A DNA stretch of 64,000 nt, taken from the NCBI GenBank assembly GCA_964528595.1, contig CAZGTM010000008.1, forward strand, positions 1,133 through 65,132. The letters run 5' to 3'. Source of the stretch: an uncultured Rhodospirillaceae bacterium. Its GTDB lineage: Bacteria; Pseudomonadota; Alphaproteobacteria; UBA2966. This document shows, piece by piece, positions 18,801 to 59,617 of this stretch. Both the position numbers and the translations under genes were made by a program. Position 1 is the stretch's first letter; each line of letters begins with the position of its first letter. The notes under the pieces were generated by a model. The model made no database searches. It was not told the DNA's origin and saw only the letters and a program-made list of their open reading frames with translations.

Positions 18801-19481
18801 ATGACAGAGTACAATTACGCCGATTTCAGCCTGAAGCGCGAGATGCCGCCGTTCGATGAATTCCGCGACCGGCTGCACGCCGGGGAACGGGCGCCGGACT
18901 TCCCGCTGGAGGACCTTGCCAGCGGCGCGACCGTGCAACTGCGGGACTTGTGGAAAAAAGGCCCGGCGATCATCGAGTTCGGCTCCTTCACCTGACCGTA
19001 CTGCGCCATGGCGGCCGAGGCGATGGACGACCTCGCCGACCGCCTGGCGGACCGAGCCGTGAGCTCGGCCTTTCTGTACACTCGTGAAGCCCATCCCGGC
19101 GAAAACTACCGCCACCACACCTCGATGGACGGCAAGCGCGCCAACGCGAGGGCCTTTCAGGAGCATGTGAACCTGAGGCGGCCGATCCTGCTGGACGATC
19201 TCGAAGGCACGGCCCACAAGGCCTACGGTATCCTGCCGAACATGACCTGGATCATCGGCAAGGGCGGCATGATCCTTTACAAGGCCGCCTGGACGGGCGT
19301 CGAAGATGTCGAAGACGCTTTCAACAGTCTGATGGACGGTCACGCCCGGCGCATCAAGGACCAACTGGTGCCTTTCTACAGCGAACGCTTCGCCTGGCGG
19401 ACGCGCGATGAGGACGGCTTCAAGGGCGGCCTGGAACGCGCCGGTCCGCAGGCCGTGTCGGACTTCTACGACAAGGAATAG
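18801..19481 (+). CDS. Candidate selenoprotein: thioredoxin-fold peroxiredoxin/deiodinase-like protein with in-frame TGA (Sec) at codon 18993-18995
   Basis: ORFs 18681..18995 and 19008..19481 share one frame and are separated only by a TGA. Read through, the product is ...APDFPLEDLASGATVQLRDLWKKGPAIIEFGSFT-U-PYCAMAAE... The TGA sits at the catalytic Cys position of the redoxin/deiodinase motif. ATG at 18801 has a GGAG RBS. Confidence 0.6.
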
Positions 19482-40306: not shown

Positions 40307-40741
40307 TTACGTCGTACAGGCTTTGGCGCCGGCCGGGCGTTCGGGCGCGTTATCGAGAAGGCTCTTCAAGGCGCTTTCGCTGGTTTGCGCCACGACGCGC
40401 GCCAGTTCGCCTTTCGGCGAGAGCATGACCAGCGTCGAGCGCCTGACGACCCTCAGCTTTTTCGAAATCGGGGAACCTGCGTGAATATCCCAATCAGCAT
40501 ATATAAAGGCGATGTTCCTGTCGTAGTCGGCGTTGCCTGATCTCAGTTGCCGGATCACACGGACCTGGCGCTGGCAGGTGCCTCACCACTTGGCGCCGAA
40601 ATCAAGGACGACCGAACAGCCCTTGGCCAGCGCCGCATCAAGTGCCTTCGGCGAATAGGGTGTGTCCCCGTTCCCCGCGTTCGCCGCCGTGGCGCCCATT
40701 AGCGCCAGGGCGCCCGCGGCCAGCATTCCAATTTTATTCAA
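40307..40741 (-). CDS. Candidate selenoprotein: periplasmic thioredoxin-like protein (Trx/TlpA-like, CcdA partner) with in-frame TGA (Sec) at 40583-40585
   Basis: Minus-strand frame continuous from TTG 40741 (RBS GGAGGAG 6 nt upstream, 3 nt after the ccdA stop). Read through, the product is (M)NKIGMLAAGALALMGATAANA|GNGDTPYSPKALDAALAKGCSVVLDFGAKW-U-GTCQRQVRVIRQLRSG...VVRRSTLVMLSPKGELARVV... It has a signal peptide and the Trx motif W-C-G-P-C with the first Cys replaced by TGA. The ORF track reports only the 83-aa part after the stop. Confidence 0.6.
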
Positions 40742-40759
40742 TTTCAACTCCTCCCCATC

Positions 40760-49714: not shown

Positions 49715-52042
49715 TCAAACGTCGGCAACATCAGGGGGTTGTGCCGGCACGGTAAAACTGATGGTCGTGCCCATGCCCTCCTTGCTGGCGGCGGATATAT
49801 TGCCGCCATGTTTTTCGACGAAATCCTTGCAAAGCAGCAGTCCGAGCCCGGATCCGGTTTCGCCGTCGGTGCCGGGGGTGGAGTGGTTGGCATCGATCCG
49901 GAACAATTGATCCAGGTGCTCGTTACTCATGCCGATGCCGGTATCGGTGACGGTGAAAGTGATTTGCCCGTTCTGTGATCGGCCGTGAGCGGCTTCGGCG
50001 CTTACGACGACGCCACCTCGGGGCGGCGTGAACTTAATCGCGTTGCTCACGAGATTTCGTATGACTGTGGTCATCATGTCGGGGTCCGCGACGAACTCTA
50101 TTTCGCCCGGCAGCAAATTCACCTTCACGCCTTTCAAATCGGCCACATCCCGGAGTCCATCCATTCCGGCGTCAAACAGGTCGCTGGTGGATAACGTCTC
50201 GGGATTGATCTTGACCGTGTTCATTTGCGACCGGCCCCAGGCCAAAAGGTCTTCGAGGAGCTGATAGAGTTTACGGCCGCTGGTGCTCACCGAATGCGCC
50301 ATATCCAGCATTTCCTCGCGGCTCATTTCCCCGCCCATGCGGTCGATCAAATCGGCATAGCCAATCATGACGTTGAACGGATTCTTCAGATCGTGGGCGA
50401 TGATCGAGAAGAATCTGCTTTTTTGCTGGTTGAGCAACAACAACTCGTCGCGTTGCCGAGCCAATTCCAGTTCCACCAGTTTGCGGTCCGTGATGTCGCG
50501 GCTTACGCCCATCAGCGTTTCCGGCTCGCCAAGTTCATCGCGGACCAGGATGGCGGCGGCATGGACATGTGCGATGCCGCCGTCGGCCCGAACAATCCTG
50601 TACTCGATATCGAACTCGTCGTCGTCGGAAAAGACGCGATCCAATGCTTCCCGGACGCGGCCGGCGTCTTCCGGATGCAGGCTGTCGAGAAAATCGGCCG
50701 CCGCCTCGCCGGTATAGGTCCCCGGCGCCAAACCCCAGATTTCGTGGTTACGGTCGTCCCAGTAGTGGCTGCCGTCCTTGATATTCCATGAAAAGGTGCC
50801 GATGCCGCTGGATTTCAGCGACAAACTCAGCCTTTCCTCGCTTTCCCTAAGTACCTGCTCGGCCTTTTTCAGTTGGGTAATATCGTGGATTTGGCCGAGG
50901 ATAAACTGCGGTGCGCCGTCGGAATCGCGAAGATGGGCGGAAAAGACCCTGGCCCAGATGACATCTCCATCCTTGTGGACGTAACGTTTCTCCAGCACGA
51001 AGTTGTCCAGCGATCCGGCCTCTGCCTTTTCATCGAGCGATTCGGTCGGGCCGACATCATCCGGGTGCGTGACATCGCGCCAGTTCATCTGCAGAAATTC
51101 CGGCTCCGAATATCCCAGGATATCGCAGAAGGTTTGATTGACCTTCAGATAGGAGCCGTCGACGCCGTGCAAGGCCATGCCGGCGGCGCTGGTCTCGAAG
51201 GCGCCGCGAAACTGTTCCTCGCTTTGCCGGAGTTCGATTTCCGCCCGACGGGCGCGTTCTTCCGTTTCGACTTGTTCGGTGACTTCCCGCCCCGTCCCCC
51301 GATAACCCTGGAACTCACCATTGTCGTCGTAAACCGGACGGCCACTGATCGACAGCCACACCGAACGCCCGTCTTCTAGGATGTATTCGTAACAAAAATC
51401 GCGGAACGGGTTACGGGCTTCCAGGCACGCCAAGTGCTCCTGCCAACTGTCGTCATCAGCATTGGCGGCAATTTCGTAACGGGTTTTACCGAAAGATTCC
51501 TTAGCGCCGCCTTCGGTAACGTTGAGCAGGCGTTCCGACAATTGCGTAAACCGGTGTTCCGCGTCGGTCTCCCAAACCCAGTCCGACGTCGACGCGGCGA
51601 AGTCCCGGAAACGTTCCTCGCTTTGTTGCAGGGCCTCGGCCGACTGCCTGCTCGTCGTGATGTCGGTGTAGGTAACGACCAGGCCGTCGTCCGGTGTTTG
51701 ATTGACTAGCGCTTCGTAGGTGTTTTCGCCCCGGACTGTTATTTCAGTACGCGACTGGGTTTGGTCCCAAATCAGGTCGAGTCTTTCCGCCGCCAGCTTC
51801 GCGGGGACTCCGTCCCCGAATTCACCTCTTTCGGCAAGGTACAAAGTCAGATCGATATTGGGCATGCCGAGCTTCAGGAACCCTTTGGGAAGCTGGAGGA
51901 TTTCTTCGTATTGATCGTTCCAAAGGACAAGGCGGCGGGCGCTGTCAAACATCGCCACACCTTGTGAGATGTGTTCCAGAACTACCGCCAGGAGGTCAGA
52001 TTTTTCCGTCAATCCCTTTGCTCCCGCGCCGTCCACGGGCAT
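49715..52042 (-). CDS. Multi-PAS sensor histidine kinase
   Basis: Several PAS/PAC units. HisKA (FFSIIAHDLKNP). HATPase_c (TVTDTGIGM...GSGLGLLLCKDFVEKHGG). Confidence 0.9.
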   Translation of the reverse strand: MPVDGAGAKGLTEKSDLLAVVLEHISQGVAMFDSARRLVLWNDQYEEILQLPKGFLKLGMPNIDLTLYLAERGEFGDGVPAKLAAERLDLIWDQTQSRTEITVRGENTYEALVNQTPDDGLVVTYTDITTSRQSAEALQQSEERFRDFAASTSDWVWETDAEHRFTQLSERLLNVTEGGAKESFGKTRYEIAANADDDSWQEHLACLEARNPFRDFCYEYILEDGRSVWLSISGRPVYDDNGEFQGYRGTGREVTEQVETEERARRAEIELRQSEEQFRGAFETSAAGMALHGVDGSYLKVNQTFCDILGYSEPEFLQMNWRDVTHPDDVGPTESLDEKAEAGSLDNFVLEKRYVHKDGDVIWARVFSAHLRDSDGAPQFILGQIHDITQLKKAEQVLRESEERLSLSLKSSGIGTFSWNIKDGSHYWDDRNHEIWGLAPGTYTGEAAADFLDSLHPEDAGRVREALDRVFSDDDEFDIEYRIVRADGGIAHVHAAAILVRDELGEPETLMGVSRDITDRKLVELELARQRDELLLLNQQKSRFFSIIAHDLKNPFNVMIGYADLIDRMGGEMSREEMLDMAHSVSTSGRKLYQLLEDLLAWGRSQMNTVKINPETLSTSDLFDAGMDGLRDVADLKGVKVNLLPGEIEFVADPDMMTTVIRNLVSNAIKFTPPRGGVVVSAEAAHGRSQNGQITFTVTDTGIGMSNEHLDQLFRIDANHSTPGTDGETGSGLGLLLCKDFVEKHGGNISAASKEGMGTTISFTVPAQPPDVADV

Positions 52043-52177: not shown

Positions 52178-53308
52178 GTGTCGGTTGTGACAACTGTGCT
52201 AACGGAATCCGGGCCGGTGGACGTGACGGCGGGCCCGGGCGGCGTTGACCAGCTTTGGCTGTCGACGCAGGAGACGGAAGCCGTATCCGGCTGGAGCCTG
52301 AAACCGGAAGGCTTGTGCCGAGGCGACGTTTGCATGCCCGTGCCGGGTGGCCAGGCGGACGAATACGTCCGCGACGATGTCATAAATCTGGCGGCGTTCT
52401 GGCGGCGTATGGACAAGCCTTTGGCCCACAGCCGCAACGGCGAGGTTTGGGCCTTTGGTGAAAGCGCAGGCGATCGGACGGCGACATTGAGATCGCTGGA
52501 TGCGCCGGAGTTTACGTTGCCCGACTTGGACGGCAAGGCTCACAGCCTGTCGGATTATCGCGGCAAGAAGGTTTTCTTAGCGACCTGGGCATCCTGGTGA
52601 GGCTGTCGTGCTGATCTGTCCGTGTGGCAGAAAATTTACGACGATTATCGGGACCGGGACTTCATTTGCATCGCCGTGGCGATGGACAACGATGTTGAGG
52701 CGGCACGCCCCTGGATCGAGGAGGCCAACCCGACCTATCCGGTGCTGATCGATCGCTTTCACCGGCTGGCCGATCTTTACAACATGGTCAACGTGCCGCA
52801 GGCGGTGTGGATCGACGCTGCCGGCAGGATCGTGCGGCCGACCGAAAATGCCGGTGCGTTCGAAGGCTTCCGAGCGTTCGACTTCGAGACCATGACGATG
52901 CCGGACGAGGTCACTGCCACGGTCAAAGGTGCCAAGGCGACCTACGCTGCCGCGGTAGCGGATTGGGCCGAAAAAGGCGCCGACAGCGTTCACGTTTTCG
53001 CGCCGGAGGAGGCCGAGGCCCATCTGGAGGCGCCGAACGAGGATGTCGCCCGAGCGCACGTTTTGTTTCGCCTGGGATTGCACCTAGGTCAGCTTGGCCA
53101 CCAAGATGAGGCCGACGAAGTTTTGGCCCTGGCCAGTGAGCTGCATCCCGACTCCTGGACGATCTGGCGCCAGACCGCCGAAAAACTCGAGAACGGGTTG
53201 GCGGCGGGGCCGGCATTCTGGCAACGCGTTCAGGCCCTGGGTGAACGGCACTACTATCGGCCGGTCGACATGGCCGGCATGCCAAGAGAAGGACCGCCGA
53301 CGCGTTGA
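52178..53308 (+). CDS. Candidate selenoprotein: redoxin (TlpA/AhpC-TSA family thiol-disulfide oxidoreductase) with in-frame TGA (Sec) at 52598-52600, plus N- and C-terminal extensions
   Basis: ORFs 52178..52600 and 52622..53308 share one frame and are separated only by a TGA. Read through, the product is ...LDAPEFTLPDLDGKAHSLSDYRGKKVFLATWASW-U-GCRADLSVWQKIYDDYRDRDFICIAVAMDNDVEAARPWIEEANPTYPVLID... This matches the TlpA/redoxin pattern APxFxLxDLxGKxxxLxDxxGKxVxLxFWASWCxPC with Sec in place of the first Cys. The start is uncertain (GTG 52178 or 52187). Confidence 0.55.
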
Positions 53309-53327: not shown

Positions 53328-54230
53328 CTACGCCAGGCGGTACGCACTTTCAAGCGCGGGCGGTCCGTCGCACCTGGCGCGGCCGGTTTCGACCATATGG
53401 ACGAGGTGTGCGTGGACGGAGCGTTGGGCTGCCGGGTGCAGAAACGCCGGCACATCGGCGTACATCACCTCAACCATATTGGCGATCGTGGCTTGATCGT
53501 TTTCAAGGCAAGCCAGTATCTGGGCTTCGCGTTCCTCGCGATGGGCGATGTAGGCTTCGACGAACGGTTTGGGCGCAGTGATGGCCGGCCCATGGCAGGG
53601 GCGGTAAATCTTGTCGTCCCGCTTCAAGAGCAGCCTGAGGCTCCGCATGTAAGCCTGCATGTCGCCGTCGGGCGGGACGATCACCGTGGTCGACCAACCC
53701 ATCACATGGTCGCCGGTGAACAGCGTCTTTTCTTCCCGCAGGGCGAAGCACAGGTGGTTGGAGGTATGGCCCGGCGTATGCACCGCCTCAAACGACCATG
53801 CGTCTCCCTCGACGATATCTCCGTGGCGCAAGGTGTGGTCCGGGCTGAAATCGTGATCCGCCCCTTCCTCGATCTGACCTCCCGATTCCGGACGGCCCGA
53901 GCCATGCGGCCCGAAGCCATAGGTCGGCGCGCCCGTCTTTTTCTTCAAGAGGCGGGCGGCGGGGGAATGATCACGATGGGTGTGCGTGACCAGAATATGA
54001 CTGACCCTGACGCTATCGAGCGCCGTCAGCAGGGCATCGACGTGGGTTGCCAAATCGGGACCGGGATCGATGACCGCCACATCCCGCCCGCCGACGATGA
54101 ACGTGCCGGTCCCGTTGTAGGTGAACGGACCGGGATTTTCGGCGATGACTCGCCGGACCAGCGGCGAAAGGGGTTGGGACGCGCCGTAATCGACGTCATC
54201 CTCCCGAACGAAGGGGATTTCGGCACTCAT
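53328..54230 (-). CDS. MBL-fold metallo-hydrolase
   Basis: The HxHxDH motif (VTHTHRDH) and the downstream HTPGHTSNH. Start at the internal Met 54230. Confidence 0.85.
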   Translation of the reverse strand: MSAEIPFVREDDVDYGASQPLSPLVRRVIAENPGPFTYNGTGTFIVGGRDVAVIDPGPDLATHVDALLTALDSVRVSHILVTHTHRDHSPAARLLKKKTGAPTYGFGPHGSGRPESGGQIEEGADHDFSPDHTLRHGDIVEGDAWSFEAVHTPGHTSNHLCFALREEKTLFTGDHVMGWSTTVIVPPDGDMQAYMRSLRLLLKRDDKIYRPCHGPAITAPKPFVEAYIAHREEREAQILACLENDQATIANMVEVMYADVPAFLHPAAQRSVHAHLVHMVETGRARCDGPPALESAYRLA

Positions 54231-54514
54231 GGAACGGATTGTTTCTCCGAAAATTGACCGCGACCAGGATCCCCATACTAGCGGCATACGGCACCGCGTC
54301 GCACGCGTTTCCGGCACCGTCAAAAAATTGAATTGATCACCGTTCCAATCGCCGTTTCAACGCAGACTTGCAATTGACGGAACTGATGTGGTCTATTCGG
54401 CGCGCGCGGGGCGAGACCAACCAATACAGGTGGACGGTAAAACGTTGGTATTGGGGCGTCATGTCGGGGACAGCCACCTCCACTCACTTGGGTGGCATCC
54501 CATGAAGGTGAAGA

Positions 54515-57181
54515 ATGTCGAGCCCTGCGGGTAGTGGTACATTTGGGGGTAGAGAGGCCGGGGAGGAGCTCGATTCAGAGCCCTTGACCCAAGCGGTCAG
54601 TGATTTCCCGGTCGCCGTGGTGATCCATGTCGGCGGCGTCATCCGCTATGCCAATCTCGCGGCGGCGCGACTGCACGGGATGGAGAGACCGTTTTCCCTT
54701 ATCGGCTGCCAGGCACGCGAATTCGTTCACCCCGACGATTTGAACCAAGCGTTGGAACGTGGCAGGCAGGTGCGCCAGACGGGCATCGCAGCGCCGCCCT
54801 TGGACCTTCGGCTACGGCGCCAGGATGGCCGGTACGTGCCGGTCCAGTCCCACATCTCGCTCACGCATTTCAAAGGCGAAGCTGCCGTTTTGGCGGTTTA
54901 CAGCGATATCTCCGAAAAAAAGGAGGCCGAAGAGGCGCTCCGTCAAAGCGAGGCAAATCTGCGCTACGCTATGGACGCCACCCAGGAAGCGCTCTACGTC
55001 CACCACGACGGAAAGATACTCGGTTTTAATGATCGCCTGCTCGACATGTTTGGTTACGACGCGGAGGAGATAAGCAAAAAAAACGTGATGGAATTCGTTG
55101 CGCCGAGGTATTTGGAGAAGGTCCAAAGGCAACTGAACATCCCGGGCGACGGATTTTACGAATCCGCGATGCTGCACAAAGACGGGCGTGAAATTCCCGT
55201 CGAGGTATCGGTCAAAATCAGAGAAGAAGACGACCGGGCCCTAAGATACGTCGCGGTCCGGGACATCTCAGAGCGTTTCCGGGCGGAACAAAAACTTCGC
55301 GAACGCGAGCGTATGTTGTCGGAAGCTCAGCGCATCGGACGCATCGGTCACTGGCGGATGATGGCCGATCTAAACAAGGTGGAATGGTCGGATCAGATGT
55401 ACGCTATTTACGGCATGGATCCCGAAAATTTCGATATGTCATTTAACGGCGTCTCATCCCGGGTTGATCCCGAGGGCCTCAAGAAAGCGCTTGAGGACCG
55501 GCAGGCCGCCATCACCTCGGGCGAGCCCTACACGTTTCAGTATGGCTTCACCACGCCCTCGGGCGAGAGAAAAGTGATCCGGGGCGAGGGCAGGCCCGAG
55601 TATGACGAAACGGGAAAGTTACATTCGATCTTCGGCGTTTCGCAGGATGTGACCGAGCGAGTACAAGCGGAGATCGAACTCAGCGAAAGCGAGGAGAGGT
55701 TCAGAACGCTTCTGGAGGCCGCTCCAATTCCCCTCGTGATCTCGGTGGAGGGGAAATTTGTTTACGCCAACACGCCGGCCCACGAACTCTTGGCGGTTCC
55801 TGACGGCGAACTGCTTGGCCGGGCGCCGGAAGATTTCTACGTCGACAAAGCGCTTTGTGAACGCGCCTTCGAAATGGTTCGGATGGATGGTCAGATCGCA
55901 AATCTCGATGTCGAGATGCACCGGACAGATGGCGTCCTAATTGGAACCTCCATCAACTCCAAGCGCGTGCGTTACGCGGGCCATGAGGCCGTGTTTACCG
56001 GCATCGTCGACCTTTCCGATTTGCGCACCGCCCAGGCCCAGCTTCACCAGGCGCAGAAAATGGAGGCGGTCGGTCAGCTGACCGGCGGAATCGCCCACGA
56101 CTTCAATAATCTGTTGGCCGTCATCCTCGGCAATGCTGAGATGGTCGTGGAGGATGTGGGCGAGGGCGTCGTGCCGCCCGTCGAAATCGCAAATTCGATT
56201 GTTACGGCGGCGGAACGCGGTGCCGGTCTCACCGACCAACTCCTCGCGTTTTCACGCAAACAGACTTTGGCGCCCGAAGCCATCAAACTCAACGATCAGG
56301 TCGAGCAGCTGGTTGAATTGTTGCGCCGGACCTTGGGTGCGACGATCGAGGTGAAGATATCCGGCGAGGTCCGGTTGTGGACGGCACTGGCCGATCCCGG
56401 CCAATTTCACAACGCGCTGTTGAACATGGCGGTCAATGCGCGTGACGCCATGCCGGACGGCGGCAACCTTCTGATCGAAACCAGGAATGTCCATGTCGAC
56501 GGGTCGTCGGCGGCCGGCCAGGCGGGATGCCCCGTGGGGGACTACGTATTGCTGGCGGTTTCGGACACCGGCAGCGGCATGCCGCAGGAGGTGGTGGAGC
56601 GCGTATTCGAGCCTTTCTTCACGACAAAGGATCCGGGAAAGGGCACCGGCCTTGGACTAAGCATGGTGTTCGGCTTCGCCAAGCAATCTGAAGGGCATGT
56701 CGAGGTGGACAGCGAAGTAGGTGAGGGTACGACCATTAATTTGTACCTCCCGCGCGCTACATCGGGGGAGAAATTTGGACCAGAGGACCGGGAGCCGGTA
56801 ATCCGGTCGGATAAAGGTGAACTTATTCTGGTGCTTGAAGACAGCGCGGAGGTGCGGGATTTGGTAACGGCGCATTTGCGTTCGCTTGGCTACCGGGTGT
56901 TGGAGGCTGGGAGCGGAGACGAAGCGTTGCAGTGCCTTGCCGAGGATCGAAAAGTGGATTTGCTGCTTTCGGATGTGATCCTGCCCGGCGGTATGACGGG
57001 CCCCGATGTCGCCCGTTCCGCCTTGGACCGGAACCCGGCCCTGAAGATTATATATATGTCCGGATACACGGATGATGTCGTGCTGGATAACGGGAAATTG
57101 GACGGCGATTACGTCCTTTTGCAAAAACCCTTCCGTAAACAGGATCTGGCCGAAACGGTAAGCCGGATCTTGACGATCTGA
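54515..57181 (+). CDS. Hybrid sensor histidine kinase/response regulator with multiple PAS domains
   Basis: Several PAS/PAC units. HisKA (GGIAHDFNNLL). HATPase_c (DTGSGMP...GTGLGLSMV). C-terminal receiver (ILVLEDSAEVRD...DLLLSDVILPGGMTG). Confidence 0.9.
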   Translation: MSSPAGSGTFGGREAGEELDSEPLTQAVSDFPVAVVIHVGGVIRYANLAAARLHGMERPFSLIGCQAREFVHPDDLNQALERGRQVRQTGIAAPPLDLRLRRQDGRYVPVQSHISLTHFKGEAAVLAVYSDISEKKEAEEALRQSEANLRYAMDATQEALYVHHDGKILGFNDRLLDMFGYDAEEISKKNVMEFVAPRYLEKVQRQLNIPGDGFYESAMLHKDGREIPVEVSVKIREEDDRALRYVAVRDISERFRAEQKLRERERMLSEAQRIGRIGHWRMMADLNKVEWSDQMYAIYGMDPENFDMSFNGVSSRVDPEGLKKALEDRQAAITSGEPYTFQYGFTTPSGERKVIRGEGRPEYDETGKLHSIFGVSQDVTERVQAEIELSESEERFRTLLEAAPIPLVISVEGKFVYANTPAHELLAVPDGELLGRAPEDFYVDKALCERAFEMVRMDGQIANLDVEMHRTDGVLIGTSINSKRVRYAGHEAVFTGIVDLSDLRTAQAQLHQAQKMEAVGQLTGGIAHDFNNLLAVILGNAEMVVEDVGEGVVPPVEIANSIVTAAERGAGLTDQLLAFSRKQTLAPEAIKLNDQVEQLVELLRRTLGATIEVKISGEVRLWTALADPGQFHNALLNMAVNARDAMPDGGNLLIETRNVHVDGSSAAGQAGCPVGDYVLLAVSDTGSGMPQEVVERVFEPFFTTKDPGKGTGLGLSMVFGFAKQSEGHVEVDSEVGEGTTINLYLPRATSGEKFGPEDREPVIRSDKGELILVLEDSAEVRDLVTAHLRSLGYRVLEAGSGDEALQCLAEDRKVDLLLSDVILPGGMTGPDVARSALDRNPALKIIYMSGYTDDVVLDNGKLDGDYVLLQKPFRKQDLAETVSRILTI

Positions 57182-57232: not shown

Positions 57233-59617
57233 ATGAGGGCGTTGGAACGGACAATTTGGGTGCCCGCCGGCATATTCGTTGCGTTGGCGCTGGCGTTGTC
57301 ATGGCTGTGGCAGGTCAACGACGCCAACACGGCGGCGCGTATCCGCTCGAACACGGCTCTGGTGGCGGAACAGATCTCGGTCCGCCTGGATTCACTCATC
57401 TCCGCGCGTCTCACGTTGGCGGAACATTTTCGCCGCGAATGGGCCGGCCGGGATGAATCCGATCAGGCTTCTTTCGTTCGCGAAGCACATTCGCTGCACA
57501 AGTTGTTCCCAAATTTCCAAGCCATAAGCTGGATCGACAACGACGGCATGATTCGCTGGGTCACGCCGCTCAAAGGCAACGAAGCGGCACTGGGGCTGAA
57601 TATCCGCCGACATGCCTTCGCCGGCCCCGTTCTTGCCGCCGCGGAAAAAAGCGGTACGACGCAAGTGACGCCGCCCATCGACCTGGCCCAGGGCGGCAAG
57701 GGTTTCGTCGCCTATGGCCCGCTGAAGAACAGGAACGGCGCCGCCGGGTTCATTAATCTCGTATTCCGCATTCATCCCCTGATACGGACTGCCGTGGAAT
57801 CCAGCGCGGCGGATGATTACATCCTCGCCATCTCGGACGGCGAGTTTCCCGTCTTTGGCGCAGCCTCTGCCGAAGGCGCAAACGCTGAGACGGTCCGACG
57901 CCATTTCACGATTGCCAACCGGACCTGGACGATTTCGCTTCGGCCCACGGCTGCCCACCTTGCGTCAAATTCGTCGCAGACCGTCAAGGTCATCCTTTTG
58001 TTCGGCTTGGTCCTCTCCGCCGTGTTGGCGTTCGTGCTCCGGCTGTACCTCCTGCGGCAGGAGGGCCGAAAACTGGAAATCGTTGAGCGCAGATGCATTG
58101 AAAGCGAACTCGTCCGTTCCCAGGAGCGCTTCCGCGATCTGGCGGAAACCAGCTCTGATTTCTTTTGGGAAATGGATGCTGATCTCAGGGTTTCAAACGT
58201 TTCCGCGAAGTGGTCGGATATAACCGGCGTGCCGAGAGAGCAGGTTATCGGTACGATCCAGGGACCCGGCGACGCGGGTGACCTGCCGCAATCGGTCTGG
58301 GACGCCCATCTCGCCGACTTCGAGGCACGCCGGGCGTTCAGCGAATTTCGCTACCCGCAACAGCATGCGACGCGCGGCACCATTTGGCTGTCGTCAAGCG
58401 GCAAGCCGGTGTTTGATGACAAAGGAAATTTCACCGGATATCGCGGCACGGGACGGGATGTTACCGACCGAAAGCGCGCGGAGGAAGCTCTCGAGGAAAC
58501 CCTGGCCGAGTTCAGCGCCGTCATGGAAGCGATAAATTACGGCGTACTCTTTATGGATGCCGATCTTCGGGCGCGGATCGCCAACAAGGCGTTCCAGAAG
58601 ATGTGGAACTTCCCGGACGAATTGATCGAGAGACAGGCGACCATGAAGGAATTCGTCGAGCAAAACCGGCACACCGGCCTTTATCCTGTGCGCGACGAAG
58701 ATTTCGACGATTATGTGGCGGAGCGGGTGGCGCGGGTTCGTCAGGGCGCTATTCCGCCGACCGAAATGGTCCGCGCTGACGGGGTCGTACTGCTGTATCA
58801 GTGTTATGCCCTGCCGAACGGCGGCCGCATGCTGACCTATTTCGATATTACCGAGCGCAAGAAAATCGGTGACAGCCTTAAGATCGCCAAGGAGAAGGCG
58901 GAGTATGCGGACCGGGCCAAAACGGAGTTTCTCGCCAACATGAGCCACGAGCTGCGGACACCCCTGAATTCGATCATCGGTTTTTCCGAAATACTCAAAA
59001 TCGAGGCGTTCGGCCCCATCGGGGACGTCAAGTACCGGGAATATGCCTCCGATATCAACGCCTCTGGCAGTCATCTTCTGGAGTTGATTGGTGACATCCT
59101 CGATGTATCGAAGATCGAAGCGGACCAGCTGGAATTATCCGAGAGCGTCTTGGATCCCGGAGAACTGGTGGACAGCTGCCTGCGCATGATGCGGGAGCGG
59201 GCCAACCGCGGTGGCATCAGCCTGGAAACCGAAGTTCGCGTTAGTCCGACGCACTTCGTCGGGGATGCCGTCCGCCTGAAACAGATCATCCTCAATCTGC
59301 TTTCCAACGCCATCAAATTTACGCCGGCCGGGGGATCGGTCAAAGTCGCCGGGTTTCTGGAAGACGATGGGCTGACGATCCAGGTTTCGGATACCGGGGT
59401 CGGTATCGCGCCGGAGGACATGGTCAAAGTGATGACGCCGTTCCAGCAGGTGCTGCGCGATCATGATCGGGCTTCGGAGGGCACGGGGTTGGGCGTTCAT
59501 CTCTGCAATTCCCTGACCGAGTTGCACGGGGGTGAGTTTTCCATGGAAAGCTGCCCCGGCAAGGGAACCACCGTAACCCTCAGGTTTCCACCGGAACGAT
59601 CGGTACGTCTCACTTAA
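57233..59617 (+). CDS. Sensor histidine kinase with N-terminal periplasmic sensing domain (CHASE-like), TM, PAS domains, HisKA and HATPase_c
   Basis: TM1 after MRALERTIWVPAGIFVALALALSWL, a second TM near aa 250, and PAS units. HisKA (MSHELRTPLNSIIGF). HATPase (DTGVGIAPEDM...GTGLGVHLCNSL). Confidence 0.88.
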   Translation: MRALERTIWVPAGIFVALALALSWLWQVNDANTAARIRSNTALVAEQISVRLDSLISARLTLAEHFRREWAGRDESDQASFVREAHSLHKLFPNFQAISWIDNDGMIRWVTPLKGNEAALGLNIRRHAFAGPVLAAAEKSGTTQVTPPIDLAQGGKGFVAYGPLKNRNGAAGFINLVFRIHPLIRTAVESSAADDYILAISDGEFPVFGAASAEGANAETVRRHFTIANRTWTISLRPTAAHLASNSSQTVKVILLFGLVLSAVLAFVLRLYLLRQEGRKLEIVERRCIESELVRSQERFRDLAETSSDFFWEMDADLRVSNVSAKWSDITGVPREQVIGTIQGPGDAGDLPQSVWDAHLADFEARRAFSEFRYPQQHATRGTIWLSSSGKPVFDDKGNFTGYRGTGRDVTDRKRAEEALEETLAEFSAVMEAINYGVLFMDADLRARIANKAFQKMWNFPDELIERQATMKEFVEQNRHTGLYPVRDEDFDDYVAERVARVRQGAIPPTEMVRADGVVLLYQCYALPNGGRMLTYFDITERKKIGDSLKIAKEKAEYADRAKTEFLANMSHELRTPLNSIIGFSEILKIEAFGPIGDVKYREYASDINASGSHLLELIGDILDVSKIEADQLELSESVLDPGELVDSCLRMMRERANRGGISLETEVRVSPTHFVGDAVRLKQIILNLLSNAIKFTPAGGSVKVAGFLEDDGLTIQVSDTGVGIAPEDMVKVMTPFQQVLRDHDRASEGTGLGVHLCNSLTELHGGEFSMESCPGKGTTVTLRFPPERSVRLT

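What the first reader, a model, noticed from the sequence alone, without database searches (positions are those of the whole stretch)
52178..53308. Third in-frame TGA: TlpA/redoxin-family gene with TWASW-U-GC active site and unusual N- and C-terminal extensions
ORFs 52178..52600 and 52622..53308 are in the same frame. They are separated by a single TGA (52598-52600) followed by GGC TGT. The read-through protein shows the redoxin pattern APEFTLPDLDGKAHSLSDYRGKKVFLATWASW-[TGA]-GCRADLSVWQKIYDDYRDRDFICIAVAMDND...YPVLID, aligning to TlpA/ResA FWASWCxPC...vSxDe...fpvllD with the first Cys position as TGA. The spacing to the next Cys is U-x-C, one residue shorter than the canonical CxxC. That could be real, as an unusual UxC redox centre, or could reflect an indel. 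The protein also carries about 100 N-terminal residues with a CxxxxC pair (GLCRGDVCMP). It has an acidic alpha-helical extension of about 130 residues at the C-terminus. The gene sits among PAS sensor kinases.
Basis: partly seen in the sequence, partly recalled or inferred. Interest (0 to 1): 0.8.

Follow-up and report, generated by a model that had tools for sequence, protein, structure and literature searches.

The report
Known UGC selenoprotein gene, mis-split
The in-frame TGA is a genuine selenocysteine codon in a thioredoxin-fold redox protein, but this "U-G-C" selenoprotein family has been catalogued since 2008, so the gene is an ordinary member that gene callers split in two.

Summary
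One reading frame, 52187 (or 52178) to 53308 on the + strand, carries a single TGA at 52598-52600 in the context TWASW-TGA-GGC-TGT.

It is not an error or a pseudogene:
- 100 of 107 distinct homologous sequences from genomes and metagenomes have TGA at exactly this codon. They include Alpha- and Gammaproteobacteria, Myxococcales and Acidimicrobiia.
- The rest have TGC or TGT, and these Cys forms read WASW-C-G-C. The one-residue-short U-x-C spacing is therefore a family trait, not an indel.

A hairpin 17-34 nt after the UGA meets all four published bacterial SECIS criteria. It is kept in 99 of 100 Sec forms. It holds the three most constrained synonymous sites of the whole gene.

The family is already known. 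[quoted passage not shown] The N- and C-terminal extensions are part of that model.

The function has not been tested. The best inference is a cytoplasmic selenenylsulfide oxidoreductase with a second, invariant CxxxxC pair.

The finding is real and ordinary, so interest is low.

The parts
52187..53308 (+). Complete recoded CDS, 373 codons including Sec138, ending at stop TGA 53306-53308. An alternative start is GTG 52178. Gene callers report it as two ORFs of 127 aa and 228 aa.
   Evidence: Full-length Cys homologues of 360-376 aa align end to end. NF041054 covers profile positions 6-349 of 354.
52187..52486 (+). N-terminal alpha/beta domain (~100 aa) with the invariant C44-x4-C49 pair (nt 52316-52318 and 52331-52333) on a beta-hairpin.
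52499..52834 (+). Thioredoxin-fold (TlpA/ResA/DsbE-like) catalytic domain with the active site W134-A-S-W-U138-G-C140-R141 and the cis-Pro motif N202-V-P204.
52598..52600 (+). UGA codon read as selenocysteine (U138). The partner Cys140 is TGT at 52604-52606.
   Evidence: TGA at the homologous codon in 100 of 107 distinct sequences, TGC or TGT in the others. It aligns with the first Cys of CxxC in ResA and Etrx.
52604..52643 (+). Bacterial SECIS-type stem-loop inside the coding sequence. The upper stem is 52615-52620 paired with 52626-52631. The apical loop is CGUGU at 52621-52625. A lineage-specific lower stem is 52604-52610 paired with 52637-52643.
   Evidence: Folds. The stem is kept in 99 of 100 Sec forms against 2 of 7 for the others. 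It holds the lowest synonymous-site entropy in the gene. Covariation at pairs 18-34 and 19-33. It meets the four bSECIS criteria.
52859..53305 (+). C-terminal all-helical domain (~150 aa) with a TPR-like stretch and the conserved motif H320-P-x-S-W...R328.
   Evidence: Weak Pfam TPR_14 and TPR_2. TPR matches in the PDB profile search at positions 285-326. Helices H240-350 in the model. Conserved columns.

Best explanation
This is one gene for a ~373-residue cytoplasmic selenoprotein of the known U-G-C (WAxxUGC) branch of TlpA/ResA-like thioredoxin-fold proteins.

Shown here: the UGA at 52598 sits on the nucleophilic first Cys of the ancestral W-C-x-x-C motif. A conserved stem-loop starts 14 nt after it (5-6 bp stem, loop CGUGU beginning 20 nt after the UGA).

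Inferred: this stem-loop acts as the bacterial SECIS that recruits SelB with Sec-tRNA(Sec), so the ribosome inserts selenocysteine instead of terminating.

Inferred from the chemistry of thioredoxin-fold enzymes and of C-x-C motifs: Sec138 attacks a disulfide or an oxidised substrate. It is then resolved by Cys140 into a strained U-G-C selenenylsulfide. That is in turn exchanged with a partner dithiol.

Speculative: the partner may be the invariant C44-x4-C49 pair of the protein's own N-terminal domain, and the helical TPR-like C-terminal domain may bind the substrate or partner.
For: One gene:
- Pfam and NCBIfam matches span the TGA.
- More than 40 full-length Cys homologues align end to end.
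- The AlphaFold model of a 59%-identical homologue is a single compact three-domain protein (pLDDT 95, pTM 0.92).

Sec rather than stop or error:
- TGA is at the same codon in 23 of 24 genome loci that showed the motif and in 100 of 107 distinct sequences overall. Cys is the only alternative.
- The gene is identical, with the TGA, in an independent assembly.
- TGA is also the ordinary stop of 20 of 43 long ORFs in the window and of this gene itself. The recoding is therefore local, not a changed genetic code.

SECIS:
- The window element meets all four criteria quoted in PMC13188914: 5-nt loop, 6-bp stem, G at loop position 2 followed by U, 20-nt spacing, MFE -13.4 kcal/mol.
- All 100 Sec forms meet them when the conserved hairpin is enforced.
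- 99 of 100 Sec forms keep 5 of 5 stem pairs, against 2 of 7 for the others: six TGC forms and one spurious regex match in L047 (p = 5e-15).
- Codons +6, +7 and +8 have third-position entropies of 0.0, 0.69 and 0.43 bit. The other 67 conserved four-fold codons range from 0.82 to 1.77.
- Pair 18-34 is C-G 56, U-A 16, U-G 3. Among sequences with Leu at +6, the Gln codon CAA occurs only with Leu UUG (Fisher 7e-4).

Other points:
- Sec use in this organism is supported by two more thioredoxin-fold genes with TGA at the catalytic Cys.
- A cytoplasmic location is supported by the absence of any hydrophobic segment or signal peptide.
- The family is known.
Against: - No selA, selB, selC or selD was seen in the window or in about 10 kb beyond it. 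The rest of the genome could not be searched.
- The window's own hairpin is no more stable than shuffled sequence (z = +0.23, -0.76). The SECIS evidence is therefore purely comparative.
- The stem overlaps the conserved peptide L-P/S-V-W-Q, which explains part of its conservation.
- RNAalifold found no double-sided change among the first 24 sequences. The lower stem is not conserved in register (56% paired).
- The Fisher test is not corrected for phylogeny.
- The NF041054 score is 276.8 bits, below the curated cutoff of 300.
- No member has been studied experimentally as far as the searched literature shows.
- The redox mechanism and the role of CxxxxC are inferred.
Confidence: 0.9

Rival explanations
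1. The gene is a pseudogene, or the TGA is an assembly artefact. On this view the TGA is a recent nonsense mutation or sequencing error in an ordinary Cys-type redoxin gene, and the U-x-C spacing reflects an indel.
For: Gene callers treated it as two ORFs. No read data are available for this window.
Against: TGA is at the same codon in 100 of 107 distinct relatives from several phyla, with intact frames on both sides. An independent assembly has the identical sequence. Cys forms also have C-G-C spacing. Synonymous sites just downstream are under strong constraint.
Confidence: 0.01
2. There are two separate functional genes. Translation ends at the TGA and gives a 137-aa N-terminal protein. A second 228-aa protein starts at GTG 52622.
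For: A GTG lies 22 nt after the TGA. Databases hold many 228-aa entries.
Against: The thioredoxin fold would be cut inside its active-site helix, with the first strands upstream of the TGA and the rest downstream. Cys-form orthologues are single polypeptides. The 22 nt between TGA and GTG encode conserved in-frame residues G-C-R-x-D-L. The 228-aa entries are gene-caller products.
Confidence: 0.03
3. The UGA is read through without selenium. It would be decoded as Cys or Trp by near-cognate or suppressor decoding, or as Cys through the Sec machinery, so the mature protein is not a selenoprotein in this organism.
For: The Sec machinery could not be shown for this genome. One database relative (P0102) has Trp at this position.
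Against: A SECIS-type hairpin is maintained specifically in TGA forms. Three separate genes in the window have TGA exactly at a catalytic Cys position. TGA is also a normal stop here. The family is listed as a selenoprotein family in the literature.
Confidence: 0.05

Closest known systems
NCBIfam NF041054 'ResA-like WAxxUGC motif-containing protein' (WAxxUGC_long). [quoted passage not shown] 2026, PMC13188914).
   Same: It has the same W-A-x-x-U-G-C motif with Sec encoded by TGA. It has the same ~355-residue three-part architecture, matching profile positions 6-349 of 354. It has the same mix of Sec and Cys forms. NF041054 is by far the best NCBIfam hit at 276.8 bits, against 78 bits for the next.
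   Different: It scores 23 bits below NCBI's naming cutoff of 300. Other proteobacterial members also score 275-301. It belongs to an alphaproteobacterial (Rhodospirillaceae-like) branch. The equivalence of the 2008 GOS family with the 'long' form is inferred from the motif and Pfam family, not checked sequence by sequence.
ResA, TlpA, DsbE (CcmG) and Etrx membrane-anchored thiol-disulfide oxidoreductases
   Different: The active site is U-G-C, not C-x-x-C, because the Pro of C-G-P-C is missing. It has no signal peptide or membrane anchor, so it is probably cytoplasmic. It carries extra N-terminal (CxxxxC) and C-terminal (helical, TPR-like) domains that ResA and TlpA lack.
Peroxiredoxins (AhpC/TSA, BCP/PrxQ), including Sec-containing Prx
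   Same: Pfam PF00578 is the top Pfam hit at 67 bits. The thioredoxin fold is shared.
   Different: The peroxidatic P-x-x-x-T-x-x-C/U motif is absent. The sequence here is L-A-T-W-A-S-W-U. Structural and profile matches to Prx are weaker than to the ResA and DsbE class.
E. coli fdhF-type bacterial SECIS, and the general bSECIS consensus model
   Same: It is a stem-loop within the coding sequence just 3' of the UGA, with a small apical loop that has G then U near its start. The spacing is 20 nt, within the 16-37 nt range.
   Different: There is no sequence similarity to the fdhF element and no Rfam match. The stem bases are also fixed by the conserved peptide L-P/S-V-W-Q. SelB binding is untested.

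Membership tests
WAxxUGC / UGC-containing TlpA-like selenoprotein family (NF041054) | W-A-x-x-U-G-C active-site motif with U encoded by an in-frame TGA | tested here: met
   T-W-A-S-W-TGA-G-C-R at 52583-52609. The same motif and codon occur in 100 relatives.
WAxxUGC / UGC-containing TlpA-like selenoprotein family (NF041054) | Full-length match to the 354-position 'long' profile (N-domain, Trx domain and C-terminal helical domain) | tested here: met
   Residues 26-360 match profile positions 6-349 of 354, E = 2.9e-82. Family-invariant residues, including C44 and C49, are present.
WAxxUGC / UGC-containing TlpA-like selenoprotein family (NF041054) | Score at or above NCBI's curated equivalog cutoff (300 bits) | tested here: not met
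   The score is 276.8 bits. This is an annotation threshold rather than a biological feature. The NCBI-named Myxococcus protein scores 301, and other clear proteobacterial homologues score 275-294.
Bacterial selenoprotein gene (general) | Cys-containing homologues that align Cys with the UGA position | tested here: met
   TGC or TGT at the same codon in L013, L019, L022, L032-L035 and L093.
Bacterial selenoprotein gene (general) | bSECIS downstream of the UGA: 3-9 nt loop, at least 4 bp stem, G in the first two loop positions, 16-37 nt spacing, MFE of -7.5 kcal/mol or lower | tested here: met
   Criteria are from PMC13188914. The window element has loop CGUGU, a 6 bp stem, 20 nt spacing and -13.4 kcal/mol. 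All 100 Sec forms meet them. Comparative constraint is shown.
Bacterial selenoprotein gene (general) | Genome encodes selA, selB, selC (tRNA-Sec) and selD | not testable with these tools
   There is no tRNA in the window. A crude tblastn with a recalled SelD sequence found nothing. About 10 kb beyond the window shows nothing relevant. Indirect support comes from two other Sec-candidate genes in the window.
TlpA/ResA/DsbE thiol-disulfide oxidoreductases | Thioredoxin fold of the TlpA-like class with a cis-Pro loop | tested here: met
   [not shown]
TlpA/ResA/DsbE thiol-disulfide oxidoreductases | W-C-x-x-C active site | tested here: not met
   The site is U-G-C, and C-G-C in Cys forms. There is a one-residue deletion relative to C-G-P-C and C-K-P-C.
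TlpA/ResA/DsbE thiol-disulfide oxidoreductases | N-terminal signal peptide or membrane anchor, with extracytoplasmic location | tested here: not met
   The maximum 19-residue Kyte-Doolittle mean is 0.83, and 0.37 at the N-terminus. The N-terminus is instead a folded ~100-aa domain.
Peroxiredoxin (AhpC/TSA) | Peroxidatic P-x-x-x-T-x-x-C/U motif | tested here: not met
   The motif is quoted in PMC13188914. Residues -7 to 0 here are L-A-T-W-A-S-W-U, with Leu at -7 and Ala at -3.

The most novel reading that the evidence does not exclude
The invariant CxxxxC beta-hairpin domain at the N-terminus has no characterised structural relative. It could be a built-in redox partner of the U-G-C centre. The protein would then be a self-contained cytoplasmic selenenylsulfide/disulfide relay enzyme whose substrate is chosen by the TPR-like C-terminal domain. 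That would be a function distinct from ResA, TlpA and peroxiredoxins, and nobody has tested it. The family is also mostly Sec, not Cys, in the environmental sequences sampled here (100 of 107). That sample is biased towards relatives of a Sec-form query.
Probability: 0.3. Interest if true: 0.45.

Novelty: new member of a known kind. Interest (0 to 1): 0.2.

Why it matters
For genome annotation, this is one more case where standard gene callers cut a selenoprotein gene into two ORFs (127 aa and 228 aa). They did so in every assembly examined here. At 276.8 bits the protein also falls just under NCBI's naming cutoff, so automated pipelines would miss the Sec codon.

Biologically, the family is widespread in soil and aquatic Proteobacteria and Actinobacteria, and no member has been characterised. 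It has an unusual one-residue-spaced U-G-C centre and a second invariant Cys pair.

The SECIS description given here (loop CGUGU, with synonymous-site constraint at codons +6 to +8) could help build a detector for the family.

None of this changes current understanding of selenoproteins.

Tried and rejected
- Rfam gathering scan of the whole window: no hit.
- tRNA and tmRNA scan: nothing, so no tRNA-Sec locally.
- Single-sequence folding energy as SECIS evidence: rejected, because the hairpin is no better than shuffles.
- RNAalifold on 24 sequences: it recovered only the 5-bp stem, with no double-sided changes.
- The 7-bp lower stem seen in the window: only 56% paired across loci and shifts register, so it is lineage-specific at best.
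- My first automated bSECIS test on unconstrained MFE structures: it passed only 59 of 100. It counted contiguous pairs and failed stems with a bulged U. I replaced it with a test that enforces the conserved hairpin.
I modelled the 59%-identical Cys homologue P0002 and the exact N-terminal window fragment instead.
- Model coordinates are not exposed, so the distance between C44/C49 and U138/C140 could not be measured.
- Conserved gene neighbourhood: none beyond close relatives. The best recurrent neighbour is in 15 of 113 loci. The MBL-fold and PAS-kinase synteny holds only for the Rhodospirillaceae-like relatives.
- selD screen with a recalled E. coli sequence: no hit, but the test is crude.
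- Literature search for 'WAxxUGC': zero papers. The family was found under other names.
- Global TGA reassignment: rejected, because TGA ends 20 of 43 long ORFs and this gene itself.

Full report
**What is in the sequence**

The + strand frame that opens at GTG 52178 or 52187 runs to TGA 53306-53308. It has a single internal stop, TGA at 52598-52600, in the context ...ACC TGG GCA TCC TGG TGA GGC TGT CGT... This reads T-W-A-S-W-*-G-C-R.

With the TGA bridged, Pfam AhpC-TSA (1.7e-18) and Redoxin (1.5e-14) match across it. A weak TPR signal lies near the C-terminus.

Alignment to solved ResA and pneumococcal Etrx puts the TGA on the first Cys of W-C-x-x-C. The second Cys is one residue closer: WASWCG-C against WASWCGPC.

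The start is more likely GTG 52187. The product MTTVLTESG... matches homologue N-termini such as MTTILSELG, and a GGGGGG run lies 8-9 nt upstream.

**Is the TGA real and conserved?**

A protein search returned two kinds of hit:
- many 228-aa entries, which are the fragment after the TGA as cut by gene callers;
- full-length proteins of about 365 aa.

The full-length ones read WASW-C-G-C. Their DNA has TGC, including the Myxococcus protein that NCBI names "ResA-like WAxxUGC motif-containing protein". The U-x-C spacing is therefore a family trait, not an indel.

In 28 genome loci, 23 of the 24 caught by the first motif scan had TGA at exactly this codon. A looser scan added one more TGA and two Cys forms, TGC and TGT. 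The hosts are Rhodospirillaceae-like and other Alphaproteobacteria, Gammaproteobacteria, Myxococcales and Acidimicrobiia.

After adding 80 metagenome loci, 100 of 107 distinct sequences have TGA and 6 have TGC. One further regex match, in L047, is spurious.

The same gene, with no mismatch over its 1131 nt and with the TGA, occurs in an independent assembly, Ga0105010_1000083.

TGA is also the normal stop of 20 of 43 long ORFs in the window, and of this gene itself. The genetic code is standard and the recoding is local.

**SECIS**

A hairpin follows the UGA. Numbering from U of UGA as 1, the stem is 18/19-23 paired with 29-33/34, and the loop is 24-28. In window coordinates the stem is 52615-52620 with 52626-52631, and the loop CGUGU is 52621-52625.

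The 2026 review gives four criteria for a bacterial SECIS:
- a 3-9 nt loop;
- a stem of at least 4 bp;
- G in the first two loop positions, usually followed by G or U;
- 16-37 nt between the UGA and the loop, with MFE of -7.5 kcal/mol or lower.

The window element meets all four: 5-nt loop, 6-bp stem, C-G-U..., 20 nt and -13.4 kcal/mol. All 100 Sec forms meet them when the conserved hairpin is enforced.

On its own the hairpin is not more stable than shuffled sequence. It also overlaps the conserved peptide L-P/S-V-W-Q. The evidence therefore has to be comparative, and it rests on three results.

1. Stem retention. 99 of 100 Sec forms keep all five core pairs. Only 2 of the other 7 sequences do (six TGC forms and the spurious L047 match). 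Several Cys forms break the stem with the same or similar amino acids, for example CUA CCC AUA UGG CAA and CUU GGU UUG.

2. Synonymous-site constraint. I examined 70 conserved four-fold-degenerate codons across 102 Sec-form coding sequences. The three lowest third-position entropies are codons +6, +7 and +8 after Sec, at 0.0, 0.69 and 0.43 bit. All the others lie between 0.82 and 1.77.

3. Covariation. Pair 18-34 joins a synonymous Asp position to the first base of a variable codon. It is C-G in 56 sequences, U-A in 16 and U-G in 3. Among sequences with Leu at +6, the Gln codon CAA appears only with Leu UUG (Fisher 7e-4, uncorrected for phylogeny).

The lower stem seen in the window is not conserved in register.

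**Does the organism use Sec?**

The window has no tRNA. It shows no selD in a crude screen. About 10 kb beyond the window shows nothing relevant. The machinery therefore remains unverified.

There is indirect support from two other thioredoxin-fold genes with TGA at the catalytic Cys:
- a deiodinase-like FGSFT-U-PYC at 18993 (+);
- a signal-peptide thioredoxin, FGAKW-U-GTC, at 40585 (-).

**What the protein is**

An AlphaFold model of the closest full-length Cys homologue is a compact three-domain protein (pLDDT 95, pTM 0.92).

- The C-terminal ~150 residues are helical and TPR-like.

There is no signal peptide or membrane segment. Unlike ResA and TlpA, the protein is therefore probably cytoplasmic. 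The peroxiredoxin motif PxxxTxxC/U is absent.

No gene neighbour is conserved across the family. The PAS-kinase and MBL-hydrolase context is shared only with close relatives.

**Mechanism**

Two things are shown: the position of Sec on the nucleophilic Cys, and the recoding signal.

The chemistry is inferred from established thioredoxin-fold chemistry and from my own knowledge of C-x-C motifs, which are strained and relatively oxidising. On this view Sec138 attacks the substrate, Cys140 resolves it into a U-G-C selenenylsulfide, and a dithiol recycles it.

It is speculative that the recycling dithiol is the protein's own C44/C49 pair. I could not measure distances because model coordinates are not exposed.

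**Comparison with what is known**

- NCBIfam NF041054 "ResA-like WAxxUGC motif-containing protein" (WAxxUGC_long) matches residues 26-360 over profile positions 6-349 of 354. The score is 276.8 bits, against 78 bits for the next family.
- That score is below the curated cutoff of 300. Clear proteobacterial relatives score 275-301, and a Dehalococcoidia member scores 337.
- The literature lists "Prx-like (UGC-containing), pfam00578, motif UGC" with 46 Sec sequences in the GOS data. It was more abundant in non-marine samples (PMC2398784).
- No paper in the searched library uses the NCBI motif name. I found no experimental study of the family.

**Verdict**

The N- and C-terminal extensions and the U-x-C spacing define that family and are not peculiar to this gene.

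What remains open is the function of the family and the role of the second Cys pair.

Noticed in passing
window 18801-19481 (+), TGA at 18993-18995: A second selenoprotein candidate, deiodinase-like and AhpC-like, with the motif FGSFT-U-PYC. Pfam AhpC-TSA (4.4e-10) and T4_deiodinase (2.6e-9) span the TGA. NCBIfam NF038285 scores 65.6 bits, below its cutoff of 250. A strong hairpin lies just downstream (-29.9 kcal/mol, z -3.1).
   Followed up: partly
window 40307-40747 (-), TGA at 40585-40583: A third selenoprotein candidate, a small thioredoxin (Pfam Thioredoxin 2.9e-6) with FGAKW-U-GTC. Its N-terminus looks like a signal peptide (MLAAGALALMGATAANA), so it may be an exported selenoprotein. The downstream fold is not exceptional (z -0.2).
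   Followed up: partly
window 52178-53308 compared with L029 and L116: The gene is identical (0 mismatches in 1131 nt) to contig Ga0105010_1000083 from sample 3300007765. It differs by one base from Ga0117917_1000039 from sample 3300009106. The neighbouring PutA protein is indexed in 40 blocks of the assembly collection. The same organism has therefore been assembled many times, always with the gene split into ORFs of 127 aa and 228 aa.
   Followed up: partly
protein P0102 (alignment A2): One database homologue reads WASW-W-GC, with Trp at the Sec/Cys position. It could be a TGA-to-TGG change or a non-catalytic variant. Its DNA was not fetched.
   Followed up: no
window 53328-54323 (-) and 49715-52042 (-), 54515-57181 (+), 57233-59617 (+): An MBL-fold hydrolase (Lactamase_B with WHD_BLACT) converges on the selenoprotein gene. 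Three large PAS/CHASE histidine kinases surround it. This block is syntenic with an uncultured Rhodospirillaceae MAG (GCA_964343605.1) but is not conserved across the family.
   Followed up: partly
[not shown]
   Followed up: no
loci L004, L005, L007, L009, L010 and similar (SECIS region): A subset of Sec forms uses an alternative register, GACU-U-GCC / GGC-AGUC, with a bulged U in the stem. This recalls the bulged U of the E. coli fdhF SECIS. Others shorten the loop to 3 nt through an extra A-U pair (CCAGGUUGG).
   Followed up: partly
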